Source of the DNA: a virus
Taxonomy: Duplodnaviria > Caudoviricetes
IMG/VR virus record: IMGVR_UViG_3300025018_000047
Span: 1 to 42,009 of that record
Strand: one strand, 5' to 3'
DNA: 42,009 nucleotides
The first letter of the stretch is position 1; every line of letters begins with the position of its first letter. The notes beneath the pieces are model-generated. The model worked only from the letters and a program-made list of their open reading frames with translations. It was not told the origin of the DNA and ran no database searches. The position numbers were made by a program, and so were the translations under genes. Below are positions 166 to 31,598 of this stretch, piece after piece.

Positions 166-1356
166 TTACTTAGTTTGTTTATGTTTATTTATAATTTGAG
201 TTAAAGCATCGTGATAAAGAATAATATTATCGGCAATCCATTTCTTTGACACCCAATTCTTATTATGTTCTACCATTGCCTTTCTTCTCTCTGGATCATC
301 TATTAATTCTTTAATATTATTATACCATTCATCAAAGGTTTTTGCCAACAATACATCACAGCCATCATCCTTAGCTTCGATGTATGGAGTTACTGATGAG
401 GCTATTACAGGATAACCAGTAGCAGCATATTCTTTTAGCTTGAGGTCTGACTTAGCACAATTAAATGAGGTATTAACTATTGGTGCTAAAGCGATGTCCC
501 AGCCGTGACTAGCTAAAACCATAGGATAATTCTCTAAAGATTCTCCGGTCCAAGTGACTGACTCACCTTGATAGTTACATTTTGGGCAAGTTTCATGGAA
601 TTCTTCTAGGGCTGAGAAGGTATCTCCTAACTCTTTCTTGATCATGCCCATTGTTTCAAATTTAACTTTGCCTTTGTATTCGTGCACAATTTTTTCAATC
701 ACTTTAGAAATTAGGCGTAAGTCATCAAGATGAGCATTTCCTCCGGCCCAACCAATTCTAATATAACCATCTTGTTTTTTAGTTTGGTTATTGCTCCATT
801 TGTTTTCATTAAGGAAATTAGGCAATACGAATATTTGTTTATTATAAGGGAAATACTCTCTAGCTAATTGAGGGGTTGAAACAAGCATGGCATCAGCTGC
901 CACTACTTGCTGTATAAAACGATAGATGTAAAGAGTTCCAGGATTCCAAGCACCATAGCCACCTTCATTATGAGGGGAGATGGTTCTAACTTCATCATCT
1001 ATTTCAATTACTACTGGCTTATTATTGTCTTTAGCAAACTTCATCGCCTCGATTGATTTTGGCGATCCAGACTCTTGAAAAATAACTATATCAGATTGAA
1101 GGATATGCTCTGGGGTTGTCTCCTTAAAATCTACGATAGTATTCATTAAGCCTCGAGTTCTTAAAAATGATGCTGGCTGATAGCAACGATAGTAACCACA
1201 ACCGCCCTTATCTCTAACAACAAATAAAGCGGTTGGTAATTCTTTATTAAACTTTACCTCAGCTGGATTATCATCAGCCTTTTTAGCGAGTGGGTATTGT
1301 TCCACCGGGCCATTGGCGGTGGCAAATTTTAATGGCTTTCTTATTCTTGTGTCCAT
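166..1356 (-). CDS. Glycosyltransferase, GT-B fold (GT4-like)
   Basis: GGCGYYR, IEIDD, IGWAGG..H..DL, DIALAP...FN.AKSDLK.KEY motifs; CPKC insertion; start moved to the ATG at 1356 next to the upstream stop. Confidence 0.9.
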   Translation of the reverse strand: MDTRIRKPLKFATANGPVEQYPLAKKADDNPAEVKFNKELPTALFVVRDKGGCGYYRCYQPASFLRTRGLMNTIVDFKETTPEHILQSDIVIFQESGSPKSIEAMKFAKDNNKPVVIEIDDEVRTISPHNEGGYGAWNPGTLYIYRFIQQVVAADAMLVSTPQLAREYFPYNKQIFVLPNFLNENKWSNNQTKKQDGYIRIGWAGGNAHLDDLRLISKVIEKIVHEYKGKVKFETMGMIKKELGDTFSALEEFHETCPKCNYQGESVTWTGESLENYPMVLASHGWDIALAPIVNTSFNCAKSDLKLKEYAATGYPVIASSVTPYIEAKDDGCDVLLAKTFDEWYNNIKELIDDPERRKAMVEHNKNWVSKKWIADNIILYHDALTQIINKHKQTK

Positions 1357-1357
1357 A

Positions 1358-1834
1358 TTATTGTTTATTAGTTTTAGTAGCAGAGATGATAATCTCCGAA
1401 TTTTTCTTTTCAAATTTTACACCTTCGTGCCACAAGCGTTGTTCTTTATCTGGAAAACCTGCCTGTTCTAAAATCTTAACTATCTCTTCTTGGTTCAAAT
1501 AGGTAGTTCGAGAATAATCTTTATTGAATTCTCTAACGCTTAAATCTCCTCCCAATAGACTGCGCAGGATATAATCGAAATCTTGTTCGATAATGTAAAG
1601 CTCTCCGCCTACTTTCAAAGCAGAAACGAAGTTCCTTAACATTTCTGGTATTCTGTCATACTCAGTTATCCCCAGAATACCGAAAGCATAAATAGCTCTA
1701 ACTGATCCTGGTTTCATTTTTAATCCATAGGGTGGCCGTGGATCTAAAACTAAGTCAACATCAGGAGTTTGAAATGGCCAAATGACCATTGCATCTTCAA
1801 CCTTTTTAATAGGTGAAATTTGTATTTTTAACAT
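1358..1834 (-). CDS. Class I SAM-dependent methyltransferase-like protein, apparently degenerate
   Basis: SVRAIYA...LKVGGELYI resembles the LKPGG segment of Methyltransf_11-type proteins; the GxG SAM-binding motif is absent. Confidence 0.6.
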   Translation of the reverse strand: MLKIQISPIKKVEDAMVIWPFQTPDVDLVLDPRPPYGLKMKPGSVRAIYAFGILGITEYDRIPEMLRNFVSALKVGGELYIIEQDFDYILRSLLGGDLSVREFNKDYSRTTYLNQEEIVKILEQAGFPDKEQRLWHEGVKFEKKNSEIIISATKTNKQ

Positions 1835-2349
1835 ATATCTTTAGTTATGTTTATATTTACTAAATATTTATTTTTGAGAGATACCACCCAAGGGAAGTCC
1901 ACCAATGGACTACAATTACTATTCTCATCATATGAATAATGAGACCTAATAGTTTTGATCTTAAACTTATTAGTGAGGAGCTCGAGCACATGAGCAGTTA
2001 ATTTGGCCACTTCTGGACCTGGGTATTTATCAAAATATCTCCCCACTAACTCGATATGAATCGAGCCTTTATTAATACCTTTAGTAGAGGCTTTGCCTTC
2101 TTTTTTTATTGGAGTAAATAACCAAATACTATCCTTTGAAATAAATAGATGGGGCCCTGCTTTCCATCCTCGTGATTCATATAATCTCCAATAATGAAGC
2201 ATTGATGCGCTATTTTGCCATGACTCTATAGGGCTAGAGGTGTGATGCAAAATAATCCTATCTATTTTCCTATCAAATATCCCAAACTTCATCTCATCGA
2301 TGTAATCTTGGAATGCCTTCAGGGTCATTTTTCGATTAAGAATTTTCAT
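1828..2349 (-). CDS. N-acetylmuramoyl-L-alanine amidase (Amidase_2 type)
   Basis: IILHHT, HLFI, SIHIELVG, SH...C zinc-ligand pattern; probable start at MKILNRK. Confidence 0.8.
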   Translation of the reverse strand: MKILNRKMTLKAFQDYIDEMKFGIFDRKIDRIILHHTSSPIESWQNSASMLHYWRLYESRGWKAGPHLFISKDSIWLFTPIKKEGKASTKGINKGSIHIELVGRYFDKYPGPEVAKLTAHVLELLTNKFKIKTIRSHYSYDENSNCSPLVDFPWVVSLKNKYLVNINITKDIC

Positions 2350-2350
2350 A

Positions 2351-3112
2351 TTAATTTTTACCATACACCTGGTTTTCAAGAGAAAATCCCTCTTCGCGGC
2401 CAGATAATATGTCATTAAATTTAATTAGTTCATTACCAAAATCCGATTTAGTATGCACTGCCGTTCCTTTCCTTTTCTTCCATTTAGCTGCATACTTAGG
2501 CCAAAAATCTATATAATAATCACAAGTTTCTTCGAAATGCTCAACTGATAAACCTTTCCCAAAATGCTTAACTATTCCGGCCACTACTATTTTACAGTCC
2601 CCGGGAAGATCTACGATTCTTTGATCAGGTTTGTTATAGCGCAGATATGGAGAATTTCTAAAGAAGAAAACTATTGTCCTAAACTCTGGTCCAACCCACT
2701 CTCGCTTATTGTGATCAGGCTCGTCTCGATCTTCTGGGGTAATGTAAATATCATACAATCTGCAAGCGATGGCTCCTACTTTACGATCGAACAAAAGCTG
2801 CCAGTCATCGAAATAAAGTCTTTCATCGGCATCGAAATAAACAAACCAATCATCATCTCCGGCATCTTCTTGAGCTCTTTCAAGCGCTCTTTGTCTAAGT
2901 AGCCATTCTGATTTCTCTCTGTCCGGATCCCAATGCTCTACCTCCTGCACGCTTTTTACAGCTGGGTGAGCTCTACATATCGCGACTGTGTCATCAGTGG
3001 AGGCATCGTCAACGATATAGATGCCACCGGTGCAAACTTTGCCCCAATGGTCTAGGGTCTCTTTTATTATTTTAGATTCATTTCTGATCTTAGAAATTCC
3101 TAATATTCGCAT
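2351..3112 (-). CDS. Glycosyltransferase family 2 (GT-A)
   Basis: IRNE, IVDDASTDDT, and the DxD motif FDADE. Confidence 0.92.
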   Translation of the reverse strand: MRILGISKIRNESKIIKETLDHWGKVCTGGIYIVDDASTDDTVAICRAHPAVKSVQEVEHWDPDREKSEWLLRQRALERAQEDAGDDDWFVYFDADERLYFDDWQLLFDRKVGAIACRLYDIYITPEDRDEPDHNKREWVGPEFRTIVFFFRNSPYLRYNKPDQRIVDLPGDCKIVVAGIVKHFGKGLSVEHFEETCDYYIDFWPKYAAKWKKRKGTAVHTKSDFGNELIKFNDILSGREEGFSLENQVYGKN

Positions 3113-3116
3113 AATT

Positions 3117-3458
3117 TTATCTATTAATTTTTATTCTTCTTATTTCTCCATCCCAATCTTTTTTAGGGTATCGCTTTTTTAAGTCATCGAGATCTGCTCT
3201 CCCAATAGCAATCAGTTTAATCTTGTCATTTACCACCTTAGAATTATGAGCGCTAGGATATTTGCTCTGGGCCGAATGCTCGCTTTCTAGAAGAGGGCAG
3301 TAATTCCAGGGCTCATTTATCTGCTTACCAGCGTATATCCACGCATGATGTATCACGATTCTATCATTACTGGTTGGTGGCATCTTTGAAAGGCAGCTTC
3401 TTTTGAAATAAAAGTCACTAGCTATGAGTAATCGATGTTCAGGTGGGATTGGTCTCAT
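3117..3458 (-). CDS. HNH-like small nuclease-fold protein, degenerate zinc ligands
   Basis: IVIHH...N..PL...H pattern. Confidence 0.45.
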   Translation of the reverse strand: MRPIPPEHRLLIASDFYFKRSCLSKMPPTSNDRIVIHHAWIYAGKQINEPWNYCPLLESEHSAQSKYPSAHNSKVVNDKIKLIAIGRADLDDLKKRYPKKDWDGEIRRIKINR

Positions 3459-3459
3459 A

Positions 3460-4485
3460 TTAACTAATTAATGAATTGGCAATATCTAAGAACTTCTTAG
3501 CCGCTACTTTAACATCGTGCTCTTTTTTAATAATAGCATAGGTTTCATCTACTGATTCCTGATTCCATGCGGCATCAATTTGAGCAATAATCTCTTCTGC
3601 GCTAAATAAAGGATTCATTAAATCCTCAGCTCTTTTTGATGCAATATCATCAACGAATTTTCTCCCCGAGAAATTAGTAAGTTTTAACACTTTGTGACTA
3701 GCCCCATTAATTACTCCGCCAGTGCCCCAACGGCCATGCACAACCCCAATTTTACCGGCACAGACCCCTTCCATTACTGATCGGCCCATACCAAATACAA
3801 TGTCAGCTTCTTTGATTATTTCATCGGTTTCGTATGTGGTGGCGAAATTAGCGCCAATGCCAACAAATTTAGCCTTATAGTAATTAGCAACCTCTTTAAT
3901 AATCTTATTGATATCGCTTTCTACGCCCCAATAGTTAGAACTTACTAAAATTGTGCTTGGTTTTTTAGGTAACTTTCCTTGTTTTTTGAATCTATTTAGA
4001 TCAAAGAAGTTTCTTATTACCACTGATTCAATATTATAAACTGATTTTAATAGTCCCTGGACCTCTTCTGATACGGCCACATACTGCTCGACTATCATAT
4101 CAGTTACTGGATGCTCTGGATAAATCTCTCCAGTTTCAGGATTTGAATGTAATATTCCATGGCAGATAGCAATTATTGGAAGATTAGGGAATTTTTGGCG
4201 GACCTCCTTTGTTCTATCATAATGAGCTCCAATTGCTACATCGAAGTTACCAATATCTTCCACGAGAATGGGGTTAAACGGCTCAATTTGGCCACTTTCA
4301 TGCGTGGAGAGACTATCAACGCATTTTACTCCAATGCCTTCCAATTTGGCGGCTATGAGGCCTAAATGGGGACTATAAGCAGTAACTTCGTGTCCAAGGC
4401 GCTTTAGCTCGGTGGCTAGAGTGAGCGTGTAGGTTTCACTTCCAGCTAAAAGCGAAAGTGTATTATTGAATAAAAGAATTTTCAT
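3460..4485 (-). CDS. Glycosyltransferase, GT-B fold (GT4-like)
   Basis: MKILL...AGSETY...L...LKRLGHEV N-terminus; VAVSE, IRN, ADIV..GRS..E motifs. Confidence 0.88.
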   Translation of the reverse strand: MKILLFNNTLSLLAGSETYTLTLATELKRLGHEVTAYSPHLGLIAAKLEGIGVKCVDSLSTHESGQIEPFNPILVEDIGNFDVAIGAHYDRTKEVRQKFPNLPIIAICHGILHSNPETGEIYPEHPVTDMIVEQYVAVSEEVQGLLKSVYNIESVVIRNFFDLNRFKKQGKLPKKPSTILVSSNYWGVESDINKIIKEVANYYKAKFVGIGANFATTYETDEIIKEADIVFGMGRSVMEGVCAGKIGVVHGRWGTGGVINGASHKVLKLTNFSGRKFVDDIASKRAEDLMNPLFSAEEIIAQIDAAWNQESVDETYAIIKKEHDVKVAAKKFLDIANSLIS

Positions 4486-4492
4486 AAGTTTA

Positions 4493-4684
4493 TTATTTAT
4501 TTTCATTAGAGAACATGAATTTTGTTTTTGATAGAATATCCATTAATTTTCTAAACTGAGGTAACGGCAACCATAGTTTATTATTAACAAGGTCTCCGTT
4601 CTCTATCTCAATACTACCATTGTCATTATGATTTTCAAATTTTATCGTTATCCCATCAATGCTGAAAATTTGCTGTTTTAACAT
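4493..4684 (-). CDS. Hypothetical protein (63 aa)
   Basis: ATG with AT-rich context downstream of a terminator; fills the gap in the operon. Confidence 0.55.
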   Translation of the reverse strand: MLKQQIFSIDGITIKFENHNDNGSIEIENGDLVNNKLWLPLPQFRKLMDILSKTKFMFSNENK

Positions 4685-17313: not shown

Positions 17314-19005
17314 TTAGAAGTGTCTTTCGTTTATAGTGAAAGTTCTTGTAGCTAATTCTTTTTTATCTTTTACCTGAATAATATCTTTGGGATTACTGGC
17401 TAACATATTAAGGTCAAATACTTTGGTGCGATGCTTAGCGATTTTCTTTTCGCAATACCAGATTGCCATTCCAAGCGACATTACCTCATCTTGCTCTAGC
17501 TTTTTATCTTCCACTCGGTAATTTCCCATTTGTTCTTCAAGCTCTGGGATGACGAATGATCTGATTTTTCCAAATAACGGATTAAGCTCAGTGACTTTTC
17601 CGTCTTCGCTAGTTTTAACCTTTCTGTTATGGGTGAGAACTAGCACAAGATAGAATAACATTTCATCTTTAGGGCTTCTGGCCATCGCGAAGTCGTGCAG
17701 GTGTCTAACTTTCATTTCATGCAACATCTTGGAAATTATGATTCCTCCCATTGATGAGCTGTCGTGAACAATATCAGCATCATTGAAATCTACTTGCAAT
17801 ATTTTTAGTCTGGCTAAAGCGGCATAAGGGGACCCTCCTTTAATTGATTCTCTAAAGACAACTCGATAATGAACTCCATCTGCTGGTGGTTTCCCATCGA
17901 GGTAATTCATGAGCTCAGTGATATCAAGAATATAAATGACAGTAGGATCGCCAGTATCAGCAAAGCCCCAGTCAACTCCGATAACATAACGGCGGTTCGA
18001 TTCTCCCATAGTGAGCATTGGGTAATTCTCCCACATCTGATCAATAGCTGGTCCGGGGAATAGTTTAGCTCCAGATGATACGAAATCTCCGAAAGCAACC
18101 TGGCGATATTTCTCCTTGTCGGTTTGTTTAATCGAATCCAGAATCGAATTTTTCTCTTCATCTCCGATAAAGATATTGTTAGCAATTCCACCAATCATGG
18201 TGAAGAAACCATTTTGCAGTTTCATGCCGTATTTAACAATTCGCTGATAATAGACATGCGAAGGCTTATCTACCTCCGGGGTGCCAATGATATCCATTGG
18301 TCCACCGGTATCAAGCAAACGAGACTGGATTTTAGCTGGGAGCTCGGCTCTTAGATGAAGTGACTGGGGCGCTTCATCGTATGAAATGTAATAGAACTGC
18401 GTTCCGGCCAGAGAAGAGGCTTGATCTTCTCCGGTGGGCACACCTTTGATGGTGGCGTTGTTTGAAAATACTATTTCTCTTTTAATTTGTTTATGATCTT
18501 TGAGGAATGATTTAATACGGCAAGTGTTTCTAACTTTCTGGCCATTCCATTCATAGATCAGCTTATCATTGAAGATATCAACGATGTAACGATAGGCAGC
18601 ATCGACTTGCATGGAGTGAGGGGAGATGTTTAAGGTGCTGTATCTGATGTCTTTTATATATTCAGCTGGGCCACTACAACCTATCTTATAGAAATTATAC
18701 CATATATGCTTGACAGATGTCACGAAAGTTTTACCAAATCTGTTACCAGGAGCTAAAATATTCTTCAAAAATGGGTGCGCGAGTAATTTATCAATAGCTG
18801 GAAGAGGGATGCCGGCACTGAGTGATAGATCATAAGCTAATTCAATCTGAGTTTTGGTGGTGGTCCAAAGCCAAATTTTCTGTCTATTATGAAAATGTAA
18901 GCCTAAAAAAAACTCCCCAAAAAATACAGGGTCTTTTCTGCCTCGAGCGATAGCCAAAGCTAGATCACGGGGACTAAGATTTTGATTGTTTGAGGTATCT
19001 CGCAT
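17314..19005 (-). CDS. terL: Terminase large subunit
   Basis: Walker A GNRFGKT, Walker B ISYDEA, GTP coupling motif, RNase H-like GVDWG and a late D; start probably 19005 (alternative 19026). Confidence 0.92.
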   Translation of the reverse strand: MRDTSNNQNLSPRDLALAIARGRKDPVFFGEFFLGLHFHNRQKIWLWTTTKTQIELAYDLSLSAGIPLPAIDKLLAHPFLKNILAPGNRFGKTFVTSVKHIWYNFYKIGCSGPAEYIKDIRYSTLNISPHSMQVDAAYRYIVDIFNDKLIYEWNGQKVRNTCRIKSFLKDHKQIKREIVFSNNATIKGVPTGEDQASSLAGTQFYYISYDEAPQSLHLRAELPAKIQSRLLDTGGPMDIIGTPEVDKPSHVYYQRIVKYGMKLQNGFFTMIGGIANNIFIGDEEKNSILDSIKQTDKEKYRQVAFGDFVSSGAKLFPGPAIDQMWENYPMLTMGESNRRYVIGVDWGFADTGDPTVIYILDITELMNYLDGKPPADGVHYRVVFRESIKGGSPYAALARLKILQVDFNDADIVHDSSSMGGIIISKMLHEMKVRHLHDFAMARSPKDEMLFYLVLVLTHNRKVKTSEDGKVTELNPLFGKIRSFVIPELEEQMGNYRVEDKKLEQDEVMSLGMAIWYCEKKIAKHRTKVFDLNMLASNPKDIIQVKDKKELATRTFTINERHF

Positions 19006-19006
19006 G

Positions 19007-19612
19007 TTATAATTCGTTAGGATCAAATTGAACTACTTTTTCAGCTACTTTTTCTGGGGTGGGGTTTAACTCTTTACTGTCGTGACTAAAATCTTTAATT
19101 TCCTCTTCTTCTACTTCCCCATACTGAGCTCCTTGGAGCATGTCTTCGAACATAGTAGTTTTTCTCTTTTCTGCTTGGACTTTAGTGAGGGCAACCATAC
19201 GACTGTCACGCGCCTTCATTGCACCAAAAAGCCATTTCATTCTTTCTTTGACCGGAACTTGCTTTAGAATATCTGGATTATCAACTAACTCGTCAAGGGT
19301 GGCTTGGGAGATGGCCAAAATGTTTTTAATTGAATTGGTTTCCATTTCAGCTTCGGTTTTTTTCTTGTCAACAAATTTCTCAATAATGATTTCACGCTCA
19401 TTTCTGACCTCTAAAGCGAGTTTTTGTGCAAATTTATGCCAGTTTAGGTATTTGATATCTGGATCTAGGTCGATTACATAGGTTTTCCAAAACCCCCTTG
19501 ATGTCATATTGCCACCAAATTTATCATACTTTTCCATGATAGTAGCAAAGTGAGCTGATTTGGCCACTTTAGAATCGCTGCGGATTTTTGTGATGTCGGT
19601 CTGTTTTTTCAT
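19007..19612 (-). CDS. Putative terminase small subunit
   Basis: Helical 201 aa protein directly upstream of terL; first gene of the late arm. Confidence 0.65.
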   Translation of the reverse strand: MKKQTDITKIRSDSKVAKSAHFATIMEKYDKFGGNMTSRGFWKTYVIDLDPDIKYLNWHKFAQKLALEVRNEREIIIEKFVDKKKTEAEMETNSIKNILAISQATLDELVDNPDILKQVPVKERMKWLFGAMKARDSRMVALTKVQAEKRKTTMFEDMLQGAQYGEVEEEEIKDFSHDSKELNPTPEKVAEKVVQFDPNEL

Positions 19613-19620
19613 ATGCTAAT

Positions 19621-19649
19621 ATTATATAACAAAGTATGTCTTTCCACAA
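19621..19649 (-). promoter_or_regulatory. Promoter of the late arm, near-leaderless
   Basis: TTGTGG-17 bp-TATAAT; ATG lies 8 nt after the -10 box. Confidence 0.65.
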
Positions 19650-19668
19650 GTTACGCACAATTATCATA

Positions 19669-19697
19669 TTGACCCTATATTACAAAAATGCTAAAAT
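19669..19697 (+). promoter_or_regulatory. Sigma70-type promoter directed into the non-coding region
   Basis: TTGACC-17 bp-TAAAAT with TGn extended -10. Confidence 0.75.
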
Positions 19698-19762
19698 CGC
19701 AATTGTAAGAAATTAAAACAGTAACACTATGCTAAGGGAGCATAAAAGATTAATAGAGAAAC

Positions 19763-19791
19763 GCCGACCATAATTTGTGGTGGGTTTTTTT
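19763..19791 (+). terminator. Terminator- or attenuator-like hairpin
   Basis: GCCGACCATA/TGTGGTGGGT imperfect stem followed by a T7 run. Confidence 0.45.
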
Positions 19792-19799
19792 ATATTCCT

Positions 19800-20445
19800 T
19801 TAGAGAAGATCTTCGCGAGTGCGCCATGAATCAGCGCCATTAATAAGCGGAGCTCCCAGAACCCCCGGAAGTGATAACATCAGTGAGGGGGCATATGATA
19901 TGGAGTTAAGTCACTGGGGCCTAGCCGACTGAAATGTTGGCCCTGGCACTAGAATGGGCGAATAAGCGCGCCTGAGTGTTTTCTCACCCCAACCATATAC
20001 GGGATAAATTAACAACAAGGGCCGAGATCGGCTAGATCGTAGCCACCAATGGCAATGGAGAAGATCGTAATATTAGAGATAATAAGGTTTGCTTCCACGC
20101 CAGTATTTTTGAAAACTACACGATTTTTGCTATTTCGGCCCAATAAGAAAAGACACCATAATCTGGTGCCTGATCTTGAATCAATTTTTGGGCTCTGAGT
20201 TTTTAGGAAAGCGCGCTCGTATGCACTTTGCCAATTGGACCAATTTCTATAGACGATAGCTCTGGCTATAGAATGTCGTGCCATATATATTAATATTAGC
20301 AGTTTACAGGTAATAATGCAAGCTAGCATCCTCTCCCTACTGCCCCGGCAGCGTTCTTTGTTGATCTGCCCTGGGAAAGGGGTAAGATCTAATTCATCAC
20401 CCTTCCTCGCATCCGGGGGGGCGGGGAAAAGATGTTAGCGCGCAG
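19800..20445 (+). ncRNA. Candidate large structured non-coding RNA of unknown family
   Basis: GC-richer than its flanks, no convincing ORF, many nested stems with G-U pairs that favour the + strand, and an upstream promoter. Confidence 0.55.
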
Positions 20446-20923
20446 CGCCGAAATTATTTTTTTATTATGGCCCCCCAAAAATAACAAACTCAGGGGTCCA
20501 AATAAATTTAATTTTATTCCCACCCAAACCCCTGAAACTCTCATGTTCGCTCTCCTGCCGCACCACTCCTGTCAGCACACTACTGGACACGCTTCCTATA
20601 GTGTTTTTTTGTGTCCATACCGGGATAACAAGGTTACATGATTGTTAAACGATTGTTACTCGCTGGTGTTAGCCACCCGTGCGATCAGAAGTGTAGCCCC
20701 AGTGTTTGGAATAGACCCTTGTTTGAGGGGGAGAAGTCTTTAGACATCAAGTTGTCTTACTAATACCCCCACTACCTCTTTCCTAAATACAGAAAACCTT
20801 GTAAAGGAGGTGATAAGGCAGAGCGCTTGACTCCCCATCCCACGCCTGCCACTCACTTCCTAACTCATTTCCTTGCACCATAAAACATAATGTATCCCCT
20901 CTGGGGATAATAATATGCAATGT

Positions 20924-20970
20924 GTGGCACTTCGTGCCACGAAAAAAAAACGCGTTGCACTTCGTGCAAC
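20924..20970. repeat. Two perfect 7 bp-stem hairpins with a TTC/GAA triloop, 30 bp period
   Basis: GTGGCAC-TTC-GTGCCAC and GTTGCAC-TTC-GTGCAAC separated by an A9 tract. Confidence 0.85.
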
Positions 20971-21176
20971 ACGGGCGGGGGCAAGGCTCGCTACACCTAA
21001 TGACAATTGCCTTTGCTTCTTGTTTGGTTGCTATCTAAAGCCTCAAGCTCTCCTTCTTTCTCTCTATGGTAATAGTCTTTATTGCTCTATTGTTTTCATT
21101 AGCATTTGGGGCAATCTTTTGAATATCTTCAATTTATAGTTTTTATATGCTGGGCTGATATGCTCTAAGCTATAAC

Positions 21177-21209
21177 CTCGCTTCGCTCGGGGGGCGCTCG
21201 CTTTGCTCG
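21177..21209. repeat. 13 bp direct repeat CTCGCTT(C/T)GCTCG, two copies
   Basis: 21177-21189 and 21197-21209. Confidence 0.8.
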
Positions 21210-21250
21210 CCAGCGGTCAATCTATCTTATAAATAAGCTCCCTTTTAGCC

Positions 21251-21324
21251 TGTGGATAAGTCAGCATTAATTTTTAGAAAATAATTATTTTTAATTAATT
21301 GAGCCCTCTTTCATCTGTGGATAA
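21251..21324 (-). promoter_or_regulatory. Two perfect DnaA boxes flanking an AT-rich tract (candidate origin element)
   Basis: TGTGGATAA at 21251-21259 and 21316-21324; 21266-21300 is almost pure A/T. Confidence 0.65.
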
Positions 21325-21387
21325 ATCGGGGCTTTTTTAGTGGCTAATAATAGCTAAATAATAGGCAATAATAAGTAATGACAATCC

Positions 21388-21415
21388 TTGACAATCCCTG
21401 TCAGTATGCTATAAT
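21388..21415 (+). promoter_or_regulatory. Strong early promoter
   Basis: TTGACA-16 bp-TATAAT with TGn extension, at the head of the + arm. Confidence 0.85.
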
Positions 21416-21455
21416 AAATAGTGTTGATGAGTAATAAGCCATAACAAGAAAAAAT

Positions 21456-21551
21456 ATGATGATGACTAAATCCAAAATGCTATCCCTCTTTGAAAAATAC
21501 CGAGACTTAAGCTTAATTGAATTTGCCAGATTAATGGCTGGGATGATGTAA
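21456..21551 (+). CDS. Small early protein (31 aa, MMMTKSKMLSLFEKY...)
   Basis: First ATG-led ORF with A-rich context after the early promoter; below the ORF-track cut-off. Confidence 0.45.
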   Translation: MMMTKSKMLSLFEKYRDLSLIEFARLMAGMM

Positions 21552-21623
21552 GAAGCGGGGGCTATAAAGCGGGCTAGCGTAATTGCCCGCTCCCCCCTGC
21601 GCCAATTAATAATCACTAAATAT

Positions 21624-27530: not shown

Positions 27531-27701
27531 ATGAAAATTAGCTTCCTTGATGCACTCGACAACAAATCTCTAGAACAAATGAAAAGCTTTGGACATGTAT
27601 TTATAAATAGATATACCGGCCAAACTAGAATGAAAGTATATAAACCTAAAAATTATGCCAATTTCAACAATCGAACTAATAGATCAGGGACTAAAGCTTA
27701 G
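27531..27701 (+). CDS. Hypothetical protein (56 aa)
   Basis: ATG after a TGCTATTAT extended -10-like site; overlaps the next gene. Confidence 0.45.
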   Translation: MKISFLDALDNKSLEQMKSFGHVFINRYTGQTRMKVYKPKNYANFNNRTNRSGTKA

Positions 27702-28572
27702 CCGAGAAGAAGAATATCTTGGCAAAGAAAAAACTAGCTTCTGGGCATCAGAAACTGAAACCATGGCCTTTGACATCTATCATCGCTGGATGAAGACTGA
27801 TCCAACTAACCCAATGGATGAAGAAAAGATGATGATGCTGAAAATGCGTAAATTAACCGAAGATGCAGTTGTCCACTATTTGCGTAAAACTGGCCAAGTT
27901 ATTGAAAGATTTACAAATGAAGAAAGGTGCTTCTTTGAATGGGGCCCCAATCATGTGCCAATCTCTGGATACCCTGATACTGGCCTAATGAGTGGTGGTG
28001 ATGAAGCCATAGTTGAAGTAAAGACCTATTATGGAGGAAAGCAACATAGCGAAATTAGAATCGGGCATATTAAAACGGCTTACCTCAAACAATTAGCGAT
28101 ATATCTCTATCATTTCAAAATTAAGCACGGCATTCTCTTAATGATTAACCAAGGAACTGGAGAGAGATTCGAGTATGATCTATATCAGAAGGGTAAAGAC
28201 AAATATCATTTTATCTGCCCTGACAATGAGGTTGAAATTAATCTTTTAGAAGTATTTAAGAGATGGGAGAAAATTTGGTTAGAAAATATTTTGCCAAAGA
28301 AAGAGCCTGAAATTGAATTCCTTTATAAATACGATATCGAAAGGATTAAATGGGATGAGATAGCTGATAGTGCCATTTCTAAAGCTAGAACTAACAAGGC
28401 TGTTCTGGGGGATTGGCAGGTCAAGTATAGTGATTTCAAAGATTTAATAATTAAAAAACAAGGAACAGTCGCGGGATATACGCCCGAAGAATTAAGTAGG
28501 ATCCGGGAACTTACCGCTGGCTATTCCACTAAAAAAACTAATCAGGTTAGGTTTGATCCAGCCGACCTATAA
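27655..28572 (+). CDS. PD-(D/E)XK exonuclease (Cas4/RecB-like)
   Basis: ISGYPD...IVEVKT...QLAIY motifs. Confidence 0.85.
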   Translation: MPISTIELIDQGLKLSREEEYLGKEKTSFWASETETMAFDIYHRWMKTDPTNPMDEEKMMMLKMRKLTEDAVVHYLRKTGQVIERFTNEERCFFEWGPNHVPISGYPDTGLMSGGDEAIVEVKTYYGGKQHSEIRIGHIKTAYLKQLAIYLYHFKIKHGILLMINQGTGERFEYDLYQKGKDKYHFICPDNEVEINLLEVFKRWEKIWLENILPKKEPEIEFLYKYDIERIKWDEIADSAISKARTNKAVLGDWQVKYSDFKDLIIKKQGTVAGYTPEELSRIRELTAGYSTKKTNQVRFDPADL

Positions 28573-28577
28573 AAACT

Positions 28578-28736
28578 ATGTCAAAAGACAAAGAACTAAC
28601 TTGTAAAGATTGCGGTGGCTCATTCATTGTGACCACTAGCGAGCAAGATTTTTTCGCAAGCCGGGAACTGGCCATCCCCAAGCGATGTAAGCCATGCCGC
28701 CGCCTTAGGAAAGCTAATCAATTAGGAGGCTACTAA
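28578..28736 (+). CDS. Zinc-ribbon protein (zf-trcl-like, 52 aa)
   Basis: DKELTCKDCG..F..T..EQDFF......PKRCKPCR. Confidence 0.85.
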   Translation: MSKDKELTCKDCGGSFIVTTSEQDFFASRELAIPKRCKPCRRLRKANQLGGY

Positions 28737-28737
28737 T

Positions 28738-28962
28738 ATGGCAGTTATCAAAATGCATCCAATCGTATCGTCTAATATTGCGGCCGTAGGATACGATAAG
28801 GATTCGCAGACAATGCAAATTACCTTCAAAAATGGCTCAACTTACACTTATACTGATGTGCCGTTGGCTATGTATGAAGGAATATTCACAGCTGATTCTG
28901 CTGGAAGATATGTTCAGCAATTCATTGTGAAGGGTAAATATAAATCATCTAAAAAGAAGTAA
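28738..28962 (+). CDS. KTSC domain protein
   Basis: SSNI.AVGYD......I.F.NG..Y.Y..VP...Y.....A.S.G.Y. Confidence 0.92.
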   Translation: MAVIKMHPIVSSNIAAVGYDKDSQTMQITFKNGSTYTYTDVPLAMYEGIFTADSAGRYVQQFIVKGKYKSSKKK

Positions 28963-28964
28963 AT

Positions 28965-30200
28965 ATGAAAATTATCGAATTAAAAAGTTCTAATATTAAA
29001 AGACTAAAGGCCATAGAATTACATATAGATGAGAATCAAAACCTCATCATGATCACGGGCCGGAATGCACAGGGGAAAAGCTCTGTCCTCGATTCTATTT
29101 GGTATGCCTTAGGTGGAAAACGCGCCGCCCAAGATAAACCAATTAGAAATGGCGAGGATAAAGCTGAGGTAGAACTGACAATGAAAAGCGAGAAAGGCAC
29201 TTATATCGTTAAGCGCTCATTTACTGAGAAAGGTTCTTATTTAACTGTCACCAATTCTGACGGGGCAAAATATCAAAACCCTCAGGAATTTCTTGATTTC
29301 ATTGTCGGCAACCTCTCCTTTGATCCGCTCGAGTTTTCCAGAATGGATCAAAAGAAACAAGTAGCTGAGCTTACTAAAGTTGTTGGCCTAGACTTTGGTA
29401 AGTTAGATGAAAAGAAAAAGAAGCTCACTGAAGATCGATTAATTGTTGGCCGGGAAGAAAAATCTCTGCCTAAATATAGTGAAGACGAAGTTAAAATGGC
29501 TGATGAGTTTGATAAAGACGAACTGTCTGTAGCTGAGATTAGTGCAAAATTAGAAAAAGAAACCGGTATTAGAAATACCTATACCAGCATTCAAGATAAG
29601 ATTGAGACTAAGAAAATAAACATCGAGGAGGCCCAACTAAAAATCAAACATCTTCAAGGTCTTATCGAAAGTGAGAAAAAGGAAATGGAGGAGCTATCTA
29701 AGGTGGAGGATACTAAAGAAAACCTTGATACTCTACGCGCTAGTCTATCTGAGGCTGATGAAACTAATAAGAAGATTCGCAAAGCTAAGGAGATCAAGGA
29801 AAATATAGTTAAGGCTCAAGCTAAGAAAGCTGAGTATGATAAATTAACGGCTGAGATAGCGGCGATTGAAGAAGATAAGAAAAATAAACTGTCCAGCGCT
29901 AAGATGCCAATCGAAGGGTTAAGCTGGGATGAAGACAAAGTTCTCTATAACGGCATCCCCTATGATCAGATATCTTCAGCTGAACAATTAAAAGTTTCAA
30001 TGGCGATTGCTATGTCCGCTAATCCAAAACTCAGAATGCTTCAAATCAGAGACGGCTCTCTACTCGATAAGGATAACCTCAAGGTTATTCAAGAGATGAC
30101 AGCTGGTAAAGACTTCCAAGCCTTCATTGAAAAGGTAGATGATAGCGGAAAAGTTGGGATCGTGATCGAAGATGGAGAAATTAAAAAAATTAATAAATAA
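28965..30200 (+). CDS. SMC/Rad50-like ABC ATPase with coiled coil
   Basis: GRNAQGKSS Walker A, long coiled coil, ISSAEQ signature, IRDGSLLD. Confidence 0.85.
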   Translation: MKIIELKSSNIKRLKAIELHIDENQNLIMITGRNAQGKSSVLDSIWYALGGKRAAQDKPIRNGEDKAEVELTMKSEKGTYIVKRSFTEKGSYLTVTNSDGAKYQNPQEFLDFIVGNLSFDPLEFSRMDQKKQVAELTKVVGLDFGKLDEKKKKLTEDRLIVGREEKSLPKYSEDEVKMADEFDKDELSVAEISAKLEKETGIRNTYTSIQDKIETKKINIEEAQLKIKHLQGLIESEKKEMEELSKVEDTKENLDTLRASLSEADETNKKIRKAKEIKENIVKAQAKKAEYDKLTAEIAAIEEDKKNKLSSAKMPIEGLSWDEDKVLYNGIPYDQISSAEQLKVSMAIAMSANPKLRMLQIRDGSLLDKDNLKVIQEMTAGKDFQAFIEKVDDSGKVGIVIEDGEIKKINK

Positions 30201-30207
30201 TAATTTT

Positions 30208-30600
30208 ATGAAAACAATCTTAATTGTGAACACCACCTTAGATGGTCTAAGGTCTGACAAAGAAAAATTGGTTGCTTCTCTAAGCGATCAAGGAAACTTA
30301 AAAAGCTGGGGAGATGATTCTGTCCAGACTATCGATGAGGTCGTTTATTTCTTCAAGGTTATCTCTCTGAGTGACTATGTCTCTAAGTTAATGAGTATGG
30401 TTGGCAAGGGATATGATGAGATAAAACTTGACCCAGTTATTGACGAAGTGCAAGGTTTATTGTCAACTTTAGCTCCTTTCAGGAAAGAAGAGCATGAAGA
30501 TGCCCCTGAAACCCCTTCAGAGGCCACAGAAGAGCCAGAGAGCGATGATGAAGGAGAAGATGACTTAGATATCGAAAACGAAGAAGAATTAACTAAATAA
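30208..30600 (+). CDS. Hypothetical protein with acidic tail
   Basis: ORF with probable start MKTILIV. Confidence 0.65.
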   Translation: MKTILIVNTTLDGLRSDKEKLVASLSDQGNLKSWGDDSVQTIDEVVYFFKVISLSDYVSKLMSMVGKGYDEIKLDPVIDEVQGLLSTLAPFRKEEHEDAPETPSEATEEPESDDEGEDDLDIENEEELTK

Positions 30601-30606
30601 ACCAAT

Positions 30607-30927
30607 ATGAAGTTCAAAGTTCAAAGAAAATTGAATCTGGCCAACATTGATAAGGATCTTTGGCCTTATGAAACTGAAGATATTGGCATCGAAGATGCTG
30701 ATAGTTTTGAAGAGGCCCAGCAAATGGTCGATAAGCTGGTTGCCGAAAGAGTAGAATACTATAAAGCGAAGTCGGAGGAGTATCACAGATCTAAATCATT
30801 AGGAAATAAAACACAGCAGCCATTACCTTCTGTTTCTGCTCCTGCAGTCTCACCAGTAACCAGTAATCCAGTTCCTGCAAACCCAGCCGGATCTACCGGA
30901 GGAATGCCTGCCGAATTTAATGTTTAA
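30607..30927 (+). CDS. Hypothetical protein
   Basis: 106 aa with a P-rich tail. Confidence 0.7.
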   Translation: MKFKVQRKLNLANIDKDLWPYETEDIGIEDADSFEEAQQMVDKLVAERVEYYKAKSEEYHRSKSLGNKTQQPLPSVSAPAVSPVTSNPVPANPAGSTGGMPAEFNV

Positions 30928-31144
30928 TATGAAAGAATTTTATTCACCAAAAGAAGCGGCTGAAATACTGTCTGTAAATCGCAAGACGATATTGACCCTA
31001 GTCAATTCAGGCAGAATTAAAGCTACCAATGTAGCAGTTGGGACCAGAGCGCTATATAGGATTCCTCGCGCCGAGTTAGAAAACTTTATTAATAGCAACA
31101 AGGAATATGGACCAGGAAATACCAAAAATCAAGAAAGTAGTTGA
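30920..31144 (+). CDS. Excisionase-like helix-turn-helix protein (HTH_17/MerR-like)
   Basis: YSPKEAAEILSV...TI......G.IKA.......YRI. Confidence 0.85.
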   Translation: MFNMKEFYSPKEAAEILSVNRKTILTLVNSGRIKATNVAVGTRALYRIPRAELENFINSNKEYGPGNTKNQESS

Positions 31145-31598
31145 AATTGGAGAAACACCATTCCAATTCATTGCTAAAGAGGAAAGTATCCTTCAAGGTT
31201 GGGATGCTAAGATTCGCAAAACCATTTATCTTTTCAAAACGGATAGTGGTAATTGGGGTTATTATGATAAGGAGACCTCCCAAGTAATTGATGTCACACA
31301 ATGGAAAGAGAAGGCTGCTTGGGTTGGAGATCATTATGTTAAGATGTCTCTCTATCATAGGATAATCATCAGATTTGCTCAGCCCTTAAATTATAGTGGT
31401 TGGGATCCAGCTACACGCAGAGAAGTCCCAGTCACTACTACTGAAGCTATGGTTGTTGTCACTGATAGCGCCTATAAGCAAATAGTGGAGCAACTTAATG
31501 GCCGACCGGCTGATTCTTTTCTCAAATTTCAATTTACTACGCGTAAAATCCAAAATCGCCAATCCACTTATATTGATAAGGTTGTATGGGTAAGTTAG
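31107..31598 (+). CDS. Hypothetical beta-rich protein (possibly ssDNA-binding)
   Basis: 163 aa, aromatic and beta-rich, in the recombination module; function is a guess. Confidence 0.5.
   Translation: MDQEIPKIKKVVEIGETPFQFIAKEESILQGWDAKIRKTIYLFKTDSGNWGYYDKETSQVIDVTQWKEKAAWVGDHYVKMSLYHRIIIRFAQPLNYSGWDPATRREVPVTTTEAMVVVTDSAYKQIVEQLNGRPADSFLKFQFTTRKIQNRQSTYIDKVVWVS

What the first reader, a model, noticed from the sequence alone, without database searches (positions are those of the whole stretch)
19800..20445. Candidate previously undescribed large structured RNA (~640 nt)
Seen: a GC-richer, gene-free block in an otherwise densely coding genome, with nested stems. These include AGCTCC 19851/GGAGTT 19902 enclosing CCCCC/GGGGG; TGGGG 19915/CCCCA 19987 closing a multiloop with GCCGAC/GTTGGC; GGGCCGAGAT 20019/ATTTCGGCCC 20132 enclosing further hairpins; and GCTAGCATC 20322/GATGTTAGC 20431 enclosing CCCCGG/CCGGGG. 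The imperfect pairs are mostly G-U on the + strand, as expected for selection at RNA level, and a promoter points into it. I cannot match it to tRNA, tmRNA, RNase P or intron cores. Inference: a functional RNA such as a replication primer, a packaging RNA (it adjoins the terminase genes) or a GOLLD/ROOL-like phage RNA.
Basis: partly seen in the sequence, partly recalled or inferred. Interest (0 to 1): 0.85.

Follow-up and report, generated by a model that had tools for sequence, protein, structure and literature searches.

The report
New pseudoknotted phage RNA with antisense
A group of uncultured 42-45 kb phages carries a conserved non-coding element of about 470 bases whose base pairs co-vary into a three-pseudoknot RNA fold with no Rfam match, overlapped by a predicted short antisense RNA; it likely helps start phage DNA copying in place of the primase gene that sister phages carry, but neither its transcription nor that role is tested.

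Summary
Real and conserved, but not quite as drawn. The core is window 19806-20274 (+ strand; 334-565 nt in relatives). I found 16 distinct homologues. All 10 members of one terminase clade with enough flank carry it; 6 sister-clade members do not. Covariation is strong: in the 5' half 34 pairs, 97.6% of cells paired, 21 pairs with two-sided changes; in the 3' half 26 pairs, 89%, 19. No shuffle of 500 reached either. It has three pseudoknots, and G-U pairs lie on the + strand. New: a conserved sigma-70-type promoter faces into the 3' end (12 of 15 above background) and a minus-strand terminator lies inside, predicting a 125-260 nt antisense RNA. A conserved DNA element follows. Five near-complete carriers lack primase, helicase and initiator genes; RNA-less relatives encode them. 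No Rfam, plasmid or cultured-phage match, and no RNA-seq. Best guess (0.4): an antisense-controlled replication-initiation RNA, ColE1-like in logic but not a ColE1 member. Rivals: GOLLD/ROOL-like cage or scaffold, or a ribozyme. Packaging RNA is unlikely.

The parts
19806..20274 (+). Core structured RNA (predicted transcript; 334-565 nt in 15 full homologues)
19811..19852 (+). P1 (19811-16/19847-52) enclosing hairpin P2 (19821-24/19834-37) and the conserved strand AUUAAUAA
   Evidence: P1 100% paired, P2 91%, two-sided changes in both; coordinates
19853..19917 (+). P3 (19853-55/19903-05), P4 (19862-66/19887-91) and pseudoknot PK-A (19880-86/19911-17); conserved single strands GGAAGUAAUAAC and GUYAAG
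   Evidence: PK-A 7 pairs, 100% paired, 5 with two-sided changes
19919..19947 (+). P7 (19919-21/19945-47) and P8 (19924-29/19936-41) with a UGNRAU loop (T-loop-like; label recalled); site of large insertions in L009, L010 and L017
19954..20263 (+). Pseudoknot PK-B: 19954 and 19956-59 with 20259-63, which lie in the loop of the terminal hairpin
   Evidence: 96% paired, 3 pairs with two-sided changes (from L067 and L017)
19965..20217 (+). Long-range helix PD (19965-71/20211-17) enclosing P10 (19983-86/20196-99) and P11 (19988-92/20188-92)
   Evidence: own partner 6.8 consecutive pairs on average against 1.3 for foreign partners
19997..20222 (+). Pseudoknot PK-C (19997-20001/20218-22)
   Evidence: 87% paired, 3 pairs with two-sided changes
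20019..20141 (+).
   Evidence: not counted formally
20244..20274 (+). Terminal hairpin (20244-52/20266-74) with a lone co-varying pair and the conserved loop GAUAGCUCUA
   Evidence: 9 of 15 own stems have 7 or more of 9 pairs, against 2 of 210 foreign combinations
20143..20171 (-). Intrinsic-terminator-like hairpin and U tract on the minus strand, inside the variable region
   Evidence: this segment folds better on the minus strand in 12 of 13 homologues that have it
20145..20286 (-). Predicted antisense RNA, about 140 nt, complementary to the 3' strands of P11, P10, PD, PK-C and PK-B
   Evidence: inferred, no transcript data
20293..20321 (-). Sigma-70-type promoter facing into the RNA's 3' end (TTGCAT-17-TAATAT here, a weak copy; near-consensus in most homologues)
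   Evidence: not listed by the consensus scan
19669..19791 (+). Upstream + promoter (19669-97) followed by a hairpin and seven T (19763-91)
20322..20439 (+). Optional downstream stem module, overlapping the -35 box of the antisense promoter
   Evidence: z -3.74; and by eye in win, L003, L004, L070
20592..20776 (.). Conserved DNA element: Box A (from 20592) and Box B (20725-76); conserved in sequence with no covarying fold; candidate origin or packaging site
   Evidence: (Box A in 13 of 15, 168-705 nt after the RNA); absent by regex from 3 sister genomes
20893..21324 (.). Three short palindromes (20893-20970), two DnaA-box matches (21251, 21316) and the cumulative GC-skew minimum (21250)
19007..19612 (-). 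Terminase small subunit-like gene, divergent from the RNA
   Evidence: lead only
17314..19026 (-). Terminase large subunit
   Evidence: phrog_2, E 1.5e-16

Best explanation
The stretch 19806-20274 is a conserved non-coding element with a covariation-supported three-pseudoknot fold on the + strand, likely transcribed as an RNA that would help start phage DNA replication at the neighbouring conserved DNA element, and likely held in check by a predicted short antisense RNA. Shown: the fold, its strand, its restriction to one phage clade, its fixed place between the terminase genes and Box A/B, the convergent promoter and terminator motifs, and the lack of recognisable primase, helicase or initiator genes in five near-complete carriers. 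Inferred: host RNA polymerase makes the + RNA. When it folds fully, its 3' extension would stay on the DNA as an R-loop or be cut to a primer near Box A/B, and host enzymes would take over. The antisense RNA starts at the end of the terminal hairpin and would pair with the 3' strands of five long-range helices, undoing the fold and so setting the timing or copy number.
For: Fold. Antisense unit: minus promoter scores 10 or more in 12 of 15 (background 95th percentile 9.8), with the -10 box 24-30 nt past PK-B in 9 of 15. The terminator segment folds better on the minus strand in 12 of 13. L009 and L017 lack both promoter and terminator. Gene content: whole-record searches find the DnaG zinc finger in RNA-less G005 but not in G001-G004. 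The G005 primase finds RNA-less G009 but not G001-G004 or the window. Toprim is absent from the window. G005 and G009 also carry a SNF2-type helicase. G164, the one distant complete holder of the same Cas4-like gene, has no RNA and has an initiator and DnaB next to it. G005 has only about 460 bases between TerS and the early genes, and Box A is missing from G005, G009 and G007. Precedent for phages that use an RNA instead of RepA: PMC7157519 (passages and Discussion read).
Against: No transcript data. The presence/absence pattern is one clade split (tree 100/100), and many other genes split the same way (Cas4-like nuclease, KTSC, AAA ATPase, SSB-like, HTH and three late genes). G164 is only a second, distant comparison. 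An unrecognised protein initiator among the small unknown genes is not excluded. RNA-less G007 (85% complete) shows no primase either. The distance from RNA to Box A varies from 168 to 705 nt, with ORFs or a tRNA in between, whereas ColE1 has a fixed ~550 nt. The antisense covers the 3' half, not the 5' end. A G-run lies within 200 nt downstream in only 4 of 15. A + promoter scoring 10 or more is seen in only 2 of 16, each followed by a hairpin plus U tract. The window's own antisense promoter is weak (8.5, under the 90th percentile). The invariant single-stranded core is more ornate than a ColE1 primer is described to be. The GC-skew minimum coincides with the switch of coding strand, so it does not mark an origin independently.
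Confidence: 0.4

Rival explanations
1. An abundant free RNA that works like GOLLD or ROOL: a late-expressed ornate RNA that multimerises or binds host machinery, with the antisense RNA silencing it early in infection.
For: It is large, multi-pseudoknotted, phage-borne and tolerant of insertions in peripheral stems. tRNAs lie next to it in 2 of 15 full homologues: three co-oriented upstream and one opposite downstream in G003, one downstream in L070. GOLLD and ROOL are described as often near tRNA islands and of unknown function (10.1101/2024.12.08.627333, passages). It is divergent from the late terminase promoter.
Against: No Rfam match. No tRNA in 13 of 15 loci, some of them short. Every long-range helix can be read as intramolecular, and I tested no palindromic loop covariation. 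This reading does not explain the missing replication genes or the link to Box A/B.
Confidence: 0.27
2. A ribozyme of a new or group I-derived kind that cuts or joins RNA. It might process the transcript itself, which could also supply a primer end.
For: Invariant unpaired bases cluster at junctions. P1 stacks directly on P3, and PK-B has a bulged pyrimidine next to a G-C pair. By eye these recall the P4-P6 junction and P7 of group I introns (recalled motifs). Rfam's group I model misses many real members (PMC6125680, passages), so that negative is soft.
Against: The helix order is not that of group I: about 50 nt, including a pseudoknot strand, lie where a 3-nt linker should be. The P7-like 3' strand sits in a hairpin loop. 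The would-be G-binding pair is C-G in L067 and G-U in L009. No conserved exons, host gene or terminal G were seen.
Confidence: 0.12
3. A cis-acting transcription control element (an antitermination or attenuation RNA) at the late/early junction, in which the minus promoter and terminator act as a short leader for late genes.
For: The minus promoter points towards the terminase operon and is followed by a terminator. In G003 it would also transcribe a tRNA-Met.
Against: The fold is on the + strand. The TerS gene has its own promoter-like site directly upstream (by eye). No conserved ORF follows the + RNA.
Confidence: 0.1
4. A phi29-type packaging RNA serving the adjacent terminase and portal.
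For: It lies next to the terminase genes in 10 of 10 clade members with enough flank.
Against: The sister clade has orthologous TerS-like, TerL, portal and capsid genes (24-65% identity) without the RNA. The phage has a two-subunit terminase; pRNA-using phi29-like motors lack a small subunit (own knowledge).
Confidence: 0.05
5. The structure forms in single-stranded DNA rather than in RNA.
For: No conserved + promoter and no transcript data; an origin-like region is adjacent.
Against: Frequent G-U-type pairs, three pseudoknots, T-loop-like loops and co-oriented tRNA genes in G003 are RNA hallmarks.
Confidence: 0.05

Closest known systems
ColE1-type origin (RNA II pre-primer, RNA I antisense); PMC5043065 and PMC8683028, passages read
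   Same: A long structured non-coding RNA overlapped by a short convergent antisense unit with promoter and terminator; no recognisable initiator or primase gene; similar sizes (~470 and ~140 nt against ~550 and ~110 nt).
   Different: No sequence or Rfam match, and no match to 72,556 plasmids. The antisense covers the 3' half, not the 5' end. Three pseudoknots. Variable distance to the candidate origin. Found in tailed phages whose genes lack Shine-Dalgarno sites.
RNA-based prophage origins of cluster A mycobacteriophages (Alma, LadyBird, RedRock); PMC7157519, passages and Discussion read
   Same: A non-coding phage RNA where relatives carry a protein initiator.
   Different: Those lie next to parABS and were tested. 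Here no parABS or integrase was found, the RNA lies by the terminase genes, and the passages read describe no pseudoknotted fold or antisense partner.
GOLLD and ROOL RNAs; 10.1101/2024.12.08.627333, passages read
   Same: Large, multi-pseudoknot phage RNAs with variable peripheral regions, sometimes next to tRNAs.
   Different: No Rfam match at E up to 10, smaller core, different helix order, a conserved antisense unit, and no multimer evidence.
Group I intron core; PMC9223047 and PMC6125680, passages read
   Same: Local look-alikes only: a stacked two-helix junction, and a bulged helix with a G-C pair after an A-rich linker (motifs recalled).
   Different: Helix order, no exons, no 5' splice-site helix, no terminal G, G-site pair not invariant.

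Membership tests
ColE1-type origin | No element-encoded initiator or primase | tested here: met
   limited to recognisable families
ColE1-type origin | Overlapping antisense RNA with its own promoter and terminator | tested here: met
   motifs only:
ColE1-type origin | Antisense complementary to the 5' end of the pre-primer | tested here: not met
   it covers the last 101-141 nt up to PK-B
ColE1-type origin | Sequence or covariance-model homology to RNA I / RNA II | tested here: not met
ColE1-type origin | Fixed ~550 nt from promoter to origin | tested here: inconclusive
   origin not mapped; RNA to Box A distance 168-705 nt
ColE1-type origin | Persistent R-loop, RNase H cut, Pol I extension | not testable with these tools
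   needs experiment
GOLLD / ROOL | Match to the Rfam model | tested here: not met
GOLLD / ROOL | Often beside tRNA islands in phages | tested here: inconclusive
   2 of 15 full homologues
GOLLD / ROOL | RNA-only multimer cage, high abundance | not testable with these tools
   no RNA run listed
Group I intron | P3/P7 pseudoknot in canonical order with a 3-nt J6/7 | tested here: not met
   helix map
Group I intron | Invariant G-C guanosine-binding pair in P7 | tested here: not met
   G-C in 13 of 15, C-G in 1, G-U in 1
Group I intron | U-G 5' splice-site helix, terminal G, interrupted host gene | tested here: not met
   flanks not conserved; judged by eye
Group I intron | Match to subtype-specific covariance models | not testable with these tools
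   only Rfam's single model is held; no hit
phi29-type pRNA | Required partner of a packaging ATPase that has no small subunit | tested here: not met
   TerS-like and TerL present; sister clade has the same motor without the RNA
tRNA, tmRNA, RNase P, SRP, 6S, group II intron, HEARO, OLE, raiA | Rfam or ARAGORN match | tested here: not met
   (that these families are in Rfam 15 is recalled)

The most novel reading that the evidence does not exclude
An ornate, three-pseudoknot RNA has replaced the primase and helicase genes in a clade of tailed phages, probably of CPR-type bacteria: it opens or primes the phage origin using host enzymes only, is switched off by an antisense RNA that unzips all its long-range helices, and may even cut itself to make the primer end.
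Probability: 0.3. Interest if true: 0.92.

Novelty: new variant of a known kind. Interest (0 to 1): 0.75.

Why it matters
Large structured bacterial and phage RNAs are few, and most have no known function. This family comes with a nearly complete helix map and a built-in off switch, and its gene-content contrast points to one testable job. If it primes replication, it would link the ornate-RNA class to DNA replication and extend RNA-controlled replicons beyond ColE1 plasmids and mycobacterial prophages. If it does not, it is still a new compact (334-565 nt) cryo-EM and ribozyme-assay target.

Tried and rejected
Rfam: nothing at gathering score in the window. At E up to 10, nothing over the RNA in the window and only chance-level hits over two homologues (E 1.8 and 2.6). 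No blastn match in 50,697 cultured phage records or 72,556 plasmids, and TerL has no tblastn match among the cultured phages. Sequencing runs: no RNA holder listed, which is no evidence either way. Contigs laid from four DNA runs gave no useful variants in the RNA. A depth step near 21.4 kb (76 against 52 in X1, a possible source run) is only a weak hint of a terminus. The 106-aa minus ORF is rejected (stop-free stretches vary from 43 to 116 codons). My first reading of the 3' end as two hairpins like group I P8/P9 was wrong (weak folds); it is one hairpin with the conserved loop. The P10/P11 duplex test was only moderate: own mean -12.7 against -9.9 kcal/mol, own partner best in 7 of 15. The antisense body outside the terminator has no consistent fold (z -0.1 to -3.0). 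Skew at four-fold sites did not tell one-way from two-way replication. Box A/B has no covarying structure. Model R1 found nothing in 151 genomes of the phylum of G012 (Ca. Saccharimonadota by the tree label), and the TerL profile hit only G012 among 401. A homologue search with the RlpA-like protein did not name a host. Pattern hits dropped as chance because R1 or the HMM did not confirm them: 12 of 21, L082 (1 of 17), L108 and L112, L130. Identical copies were merged, and L021 and L078, identical to the window, were dropped. Literature: 9 searches showed no description of this RNA. In PMC10690425 (candidates 29-151 nt; passages read), six supplementary files held none of six motifs, but files 1, 2 and 4 were not searched, so a fragment could be listed there.

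Full report
Setting. The window is a complete 42,009-base virus record with direct terminal repeats. Terminase large subunit, portal and major capsid genes lie on the minus strand and small early genes on the plus strand. Between them is a gap of about 2 kb without credible genes (19613-21623). Only 3 of 54 genes have a Shine-Dalgarno-like site, while the promoters are of sigma-70 type. This suggests a CPR-type host (inference). Terminase relatives were binned with Omnitrophota, Bacteroidota and Saccharibacteria genomes, so the host is not settled.

Observation. The + strand folds better than shuffles (z -2.71; - strand -1.35). Rfam and ARAGORN find nothing.

Homologues. Loci gathered through the terminase and through DNA patterns gave 16 distinct copies including the window, 15 of them full length. 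A covariance model of the first 122 positions finds all 16 (82-134 bits; they are its training set) and nothing in the other 31 of 47 sources. In a TerL tree of 25 rows there are two clades, each 100/100. All 10 members of the window's clade that have enough upstream DNA carry the RNA, opposite to TerL; 8 more are too short to tell. In the sister clade 6 members show none, two of them at least 98% complete; a seventh is too short. The six metagenome copies found by pattern alone (L070, L076, L081, L083, L084, L085) were not tied to a terminase; four show the same Box A downstream.

Structure. On an unfitted MAFFT alignment of 11 sequences the 5' half has 34 pairs in 7 helices, 97.6% of cells paired, 21 pairs with two-sided changes, and 0 of 500 shuffles as high; slid controls give 35-46%. 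The four copies with insertions and the partial copy were left out of that count. On 15 sequences the 3' half has 26 pairs, 89% paired, 19 with two-sided changes, 0 of 500. These shuffles ignore relatedness, and I drew the helices from the same sequences, so I added anchored cross-tests. For the long-range helix PD, 12 of 15 copies form 5 or more consecutive pairs with their own partner, against 8 of 210 foreign combinations. For the terminal hairpin, 9 of 15 have 7 or more of 9 pairs, against 2 of 210. Three helices cross others: PK-A (7 pairs, all cells paired), PK-C, and PK-B, whose 3' strand lies in the conserved loop of the terminal hairpin. PK-B is highly conserved, so its two-sided changes come from two sequences only. 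G-U outnumbers A-C 34 to 4 and 43 to 16 on the + strand. Large insertions fall in peripheral stems. The core runs from 19806 to 20274, and is 334-565 nt across the family.

Antisense unit. A promoter scan with a recalled E. coli weight matrix finds a site on the minus strand just past the 3' end. It scores 10 or more in 12 of 15 copies (background 95th percentile 9.8), and in 9 of 15 its -10 box lies 24-30 nt past PK-B, which puts the start at the end of the terminal hairpin. The window's own copy is weak (8.5). Inside the variable region a hairpin with a U tract on the minus strand is listed by the tool in the window, and this segment folds better on the minus strand in 12 of the 13 copies that have it. 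L009 and L017 lack both parts. The predicted antisense RNA is 124-259 nt and overlaps the last 101-141 nt up to PK-B. By eye it holds no conserved ORF. Promoters on the + strand are not conserved: 2 of 16 score 10 or more within 200 nt, each followed by a hairpin and U tract, and L070 has one a little further up. How the + RNA is made is open. In G003 three tRNA genes lie upstream on the same strand. A small hairpin with the motif GGUAACRCC or a close variant lies 6-29 nt upstream in 8 of 16 and may be part of the RNA.

Neighbourhood. A second element, Box A and Box B, follows 168-705 nt downstream in 13 of 15 copies. It is conserved in sequence without covarying structure, so it is likely a DNA site. 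Short palindromes, two DnaA-box matches and the GC-skew minimum lie further on, but the skew turn coincides with the change of coding strand. The sister genome G005 has only about 460 bases here, and Box A is missing from all three sister genomes examined.

Gene content. The window and G001-G004 share a Cas4-like nuclease, KTSC, an AAA ATPase, an HTH protein and an SSB-like protein. They show no polymerase, primase, helicase or initiator. I scanned 44-45 window proteins and 42 of 60 further ORFs of the four relatives (the 18 left out were short or late-region ORFs), and searched whole records for primase. Of the RNA-less genomes (52 of 69 unmatched ORFs scanned), G005 has a Toprim plus zinc-finger primase and a SNF2 helicase, G009 has the zinc-finger gene and the helicase, and G007 (85% complete) shows no primase. 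G164, a distant complete phage with the same Cas4-like family, lacks the RNA and has an initiator and DnaB. This is one clade split plus one distant case, and other genes split the same way.

Mechanism. A long folded RNA, a short convergent antisense unit, an origin-like neighbour and no replication proteins together match the logic of ColE1 (PMC5043065, PMC8683028; passages read) and of RNA-based mycobacterial prophage origins (PMC7157519; passages and Discussion). I commit to an antisense-controlled replication-initiation RNA at 0.4. Membership of ColE1 fails: there is no homology, the antisense lies at the wrong end, and the spacing varies. A GOLLD/ROOL-like free RNA (0.27) fits the ornate fold and the occasional tRNAs but not the gene-content contrast. 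A ribozyme (0.12) is suggested by invariant junction bases; group I membership fails on helix order, the G-site pair and the lack of exons. Transcription control (0.1), packaging RNA (0.05) and a DNA structure (0.05) are weaker. That the element is a functional + strand RNA I put at about 0.93.

Novelty. No match in Rfam 15, cultured phages, plasmids, nine literature searches, or earlier scan findings by place or sequence. Three unsearched supplementary files of PMC10690425 might list a fragment of up to 151 nt. Earlier AI notes describe a similar anatomy in other phages. I had noted the ColE1-like idea before reading them and did not test them. PMC6125680, PMC9223047 and 10.1101/2024.12.08.627333 were read as passages only; other papers were seen only in search listings. 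Verdict: a real, new RNA family with unproven function; new variant of a known kind; interest 0.75.

Noticed in passing
window 20592-20776: Box A and Box B: a sequence-conserved non-coding DNA element found in 13 of 15 carriers and in none of 3 sister genomes; candidate origin or packaging site.
   Followed up: partly
window 20893-20970: Three short palindromes, two with a CAC-TTC-GTG core; similar ones occur in L003, L009, L015 and L076. Possible protein-binding array.
   Followed up: partly
whole window: Only 3 of 54 genes have a Shine-Dalgarno-like site; most starts are preceded by AT-rich sequence, and the TerS-like gene looks leaderless.
   Followed up: partly
window 27655-31598: Conserved module of Cas4-like nuclease, KTSC, SbcC-like AAA ATPase without a nuclease partner, a 106-aa unknown, HTH and an SSB-like protein, confined to the RNA-bearing clade among the 7 relatives compared.
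   Followed up: partly
L094 9218-10744 (G003): tRNA-Asn, tRNA-Gln and an odd tRNA upstream on the RNA's strand; a tRNA-Met sits between the antisense promoter and the RNA on the opposite strand.
   Followed up: partly
L001 4445-4530 and L076 1680-1760: Extra hairpin modules inserted between the antisense promoter and the RNA's 3' end.
   Followed up: no
L009 4180-4420: An insertion of about 240 nt in the P8 stem; this copy and L017 also lack the antisense promoter and terminator.
   Followed up: partly
window 19948-19953 and 19976-19982 with 20200-20207: U runs flank helix P10 on both sides and a purine strand before PK-B could pair with one of them: a possible fourth pseudoknot or U-A-U triple helix. 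Not counted formally.
   Followed up: no
L098 6804-7463 (G004): An RNA ligase gene (phrog_548, E 6e-28) in one carrier only.
   Followed up: no
window 166-4506: Three glycosyltransferase genes in the late operon, conserved in both clades.
   Followed up: no
L103 5551-7627 (G009): The SNF2-type helicase is in two ORFs, where G005 has one.
   Followed up: no
window about 21400: Contig depth in run X1 is 76 to the left and 52 to the right; a weak hint of a packaging start or terminal redundancy nearby.
   Followed up: no
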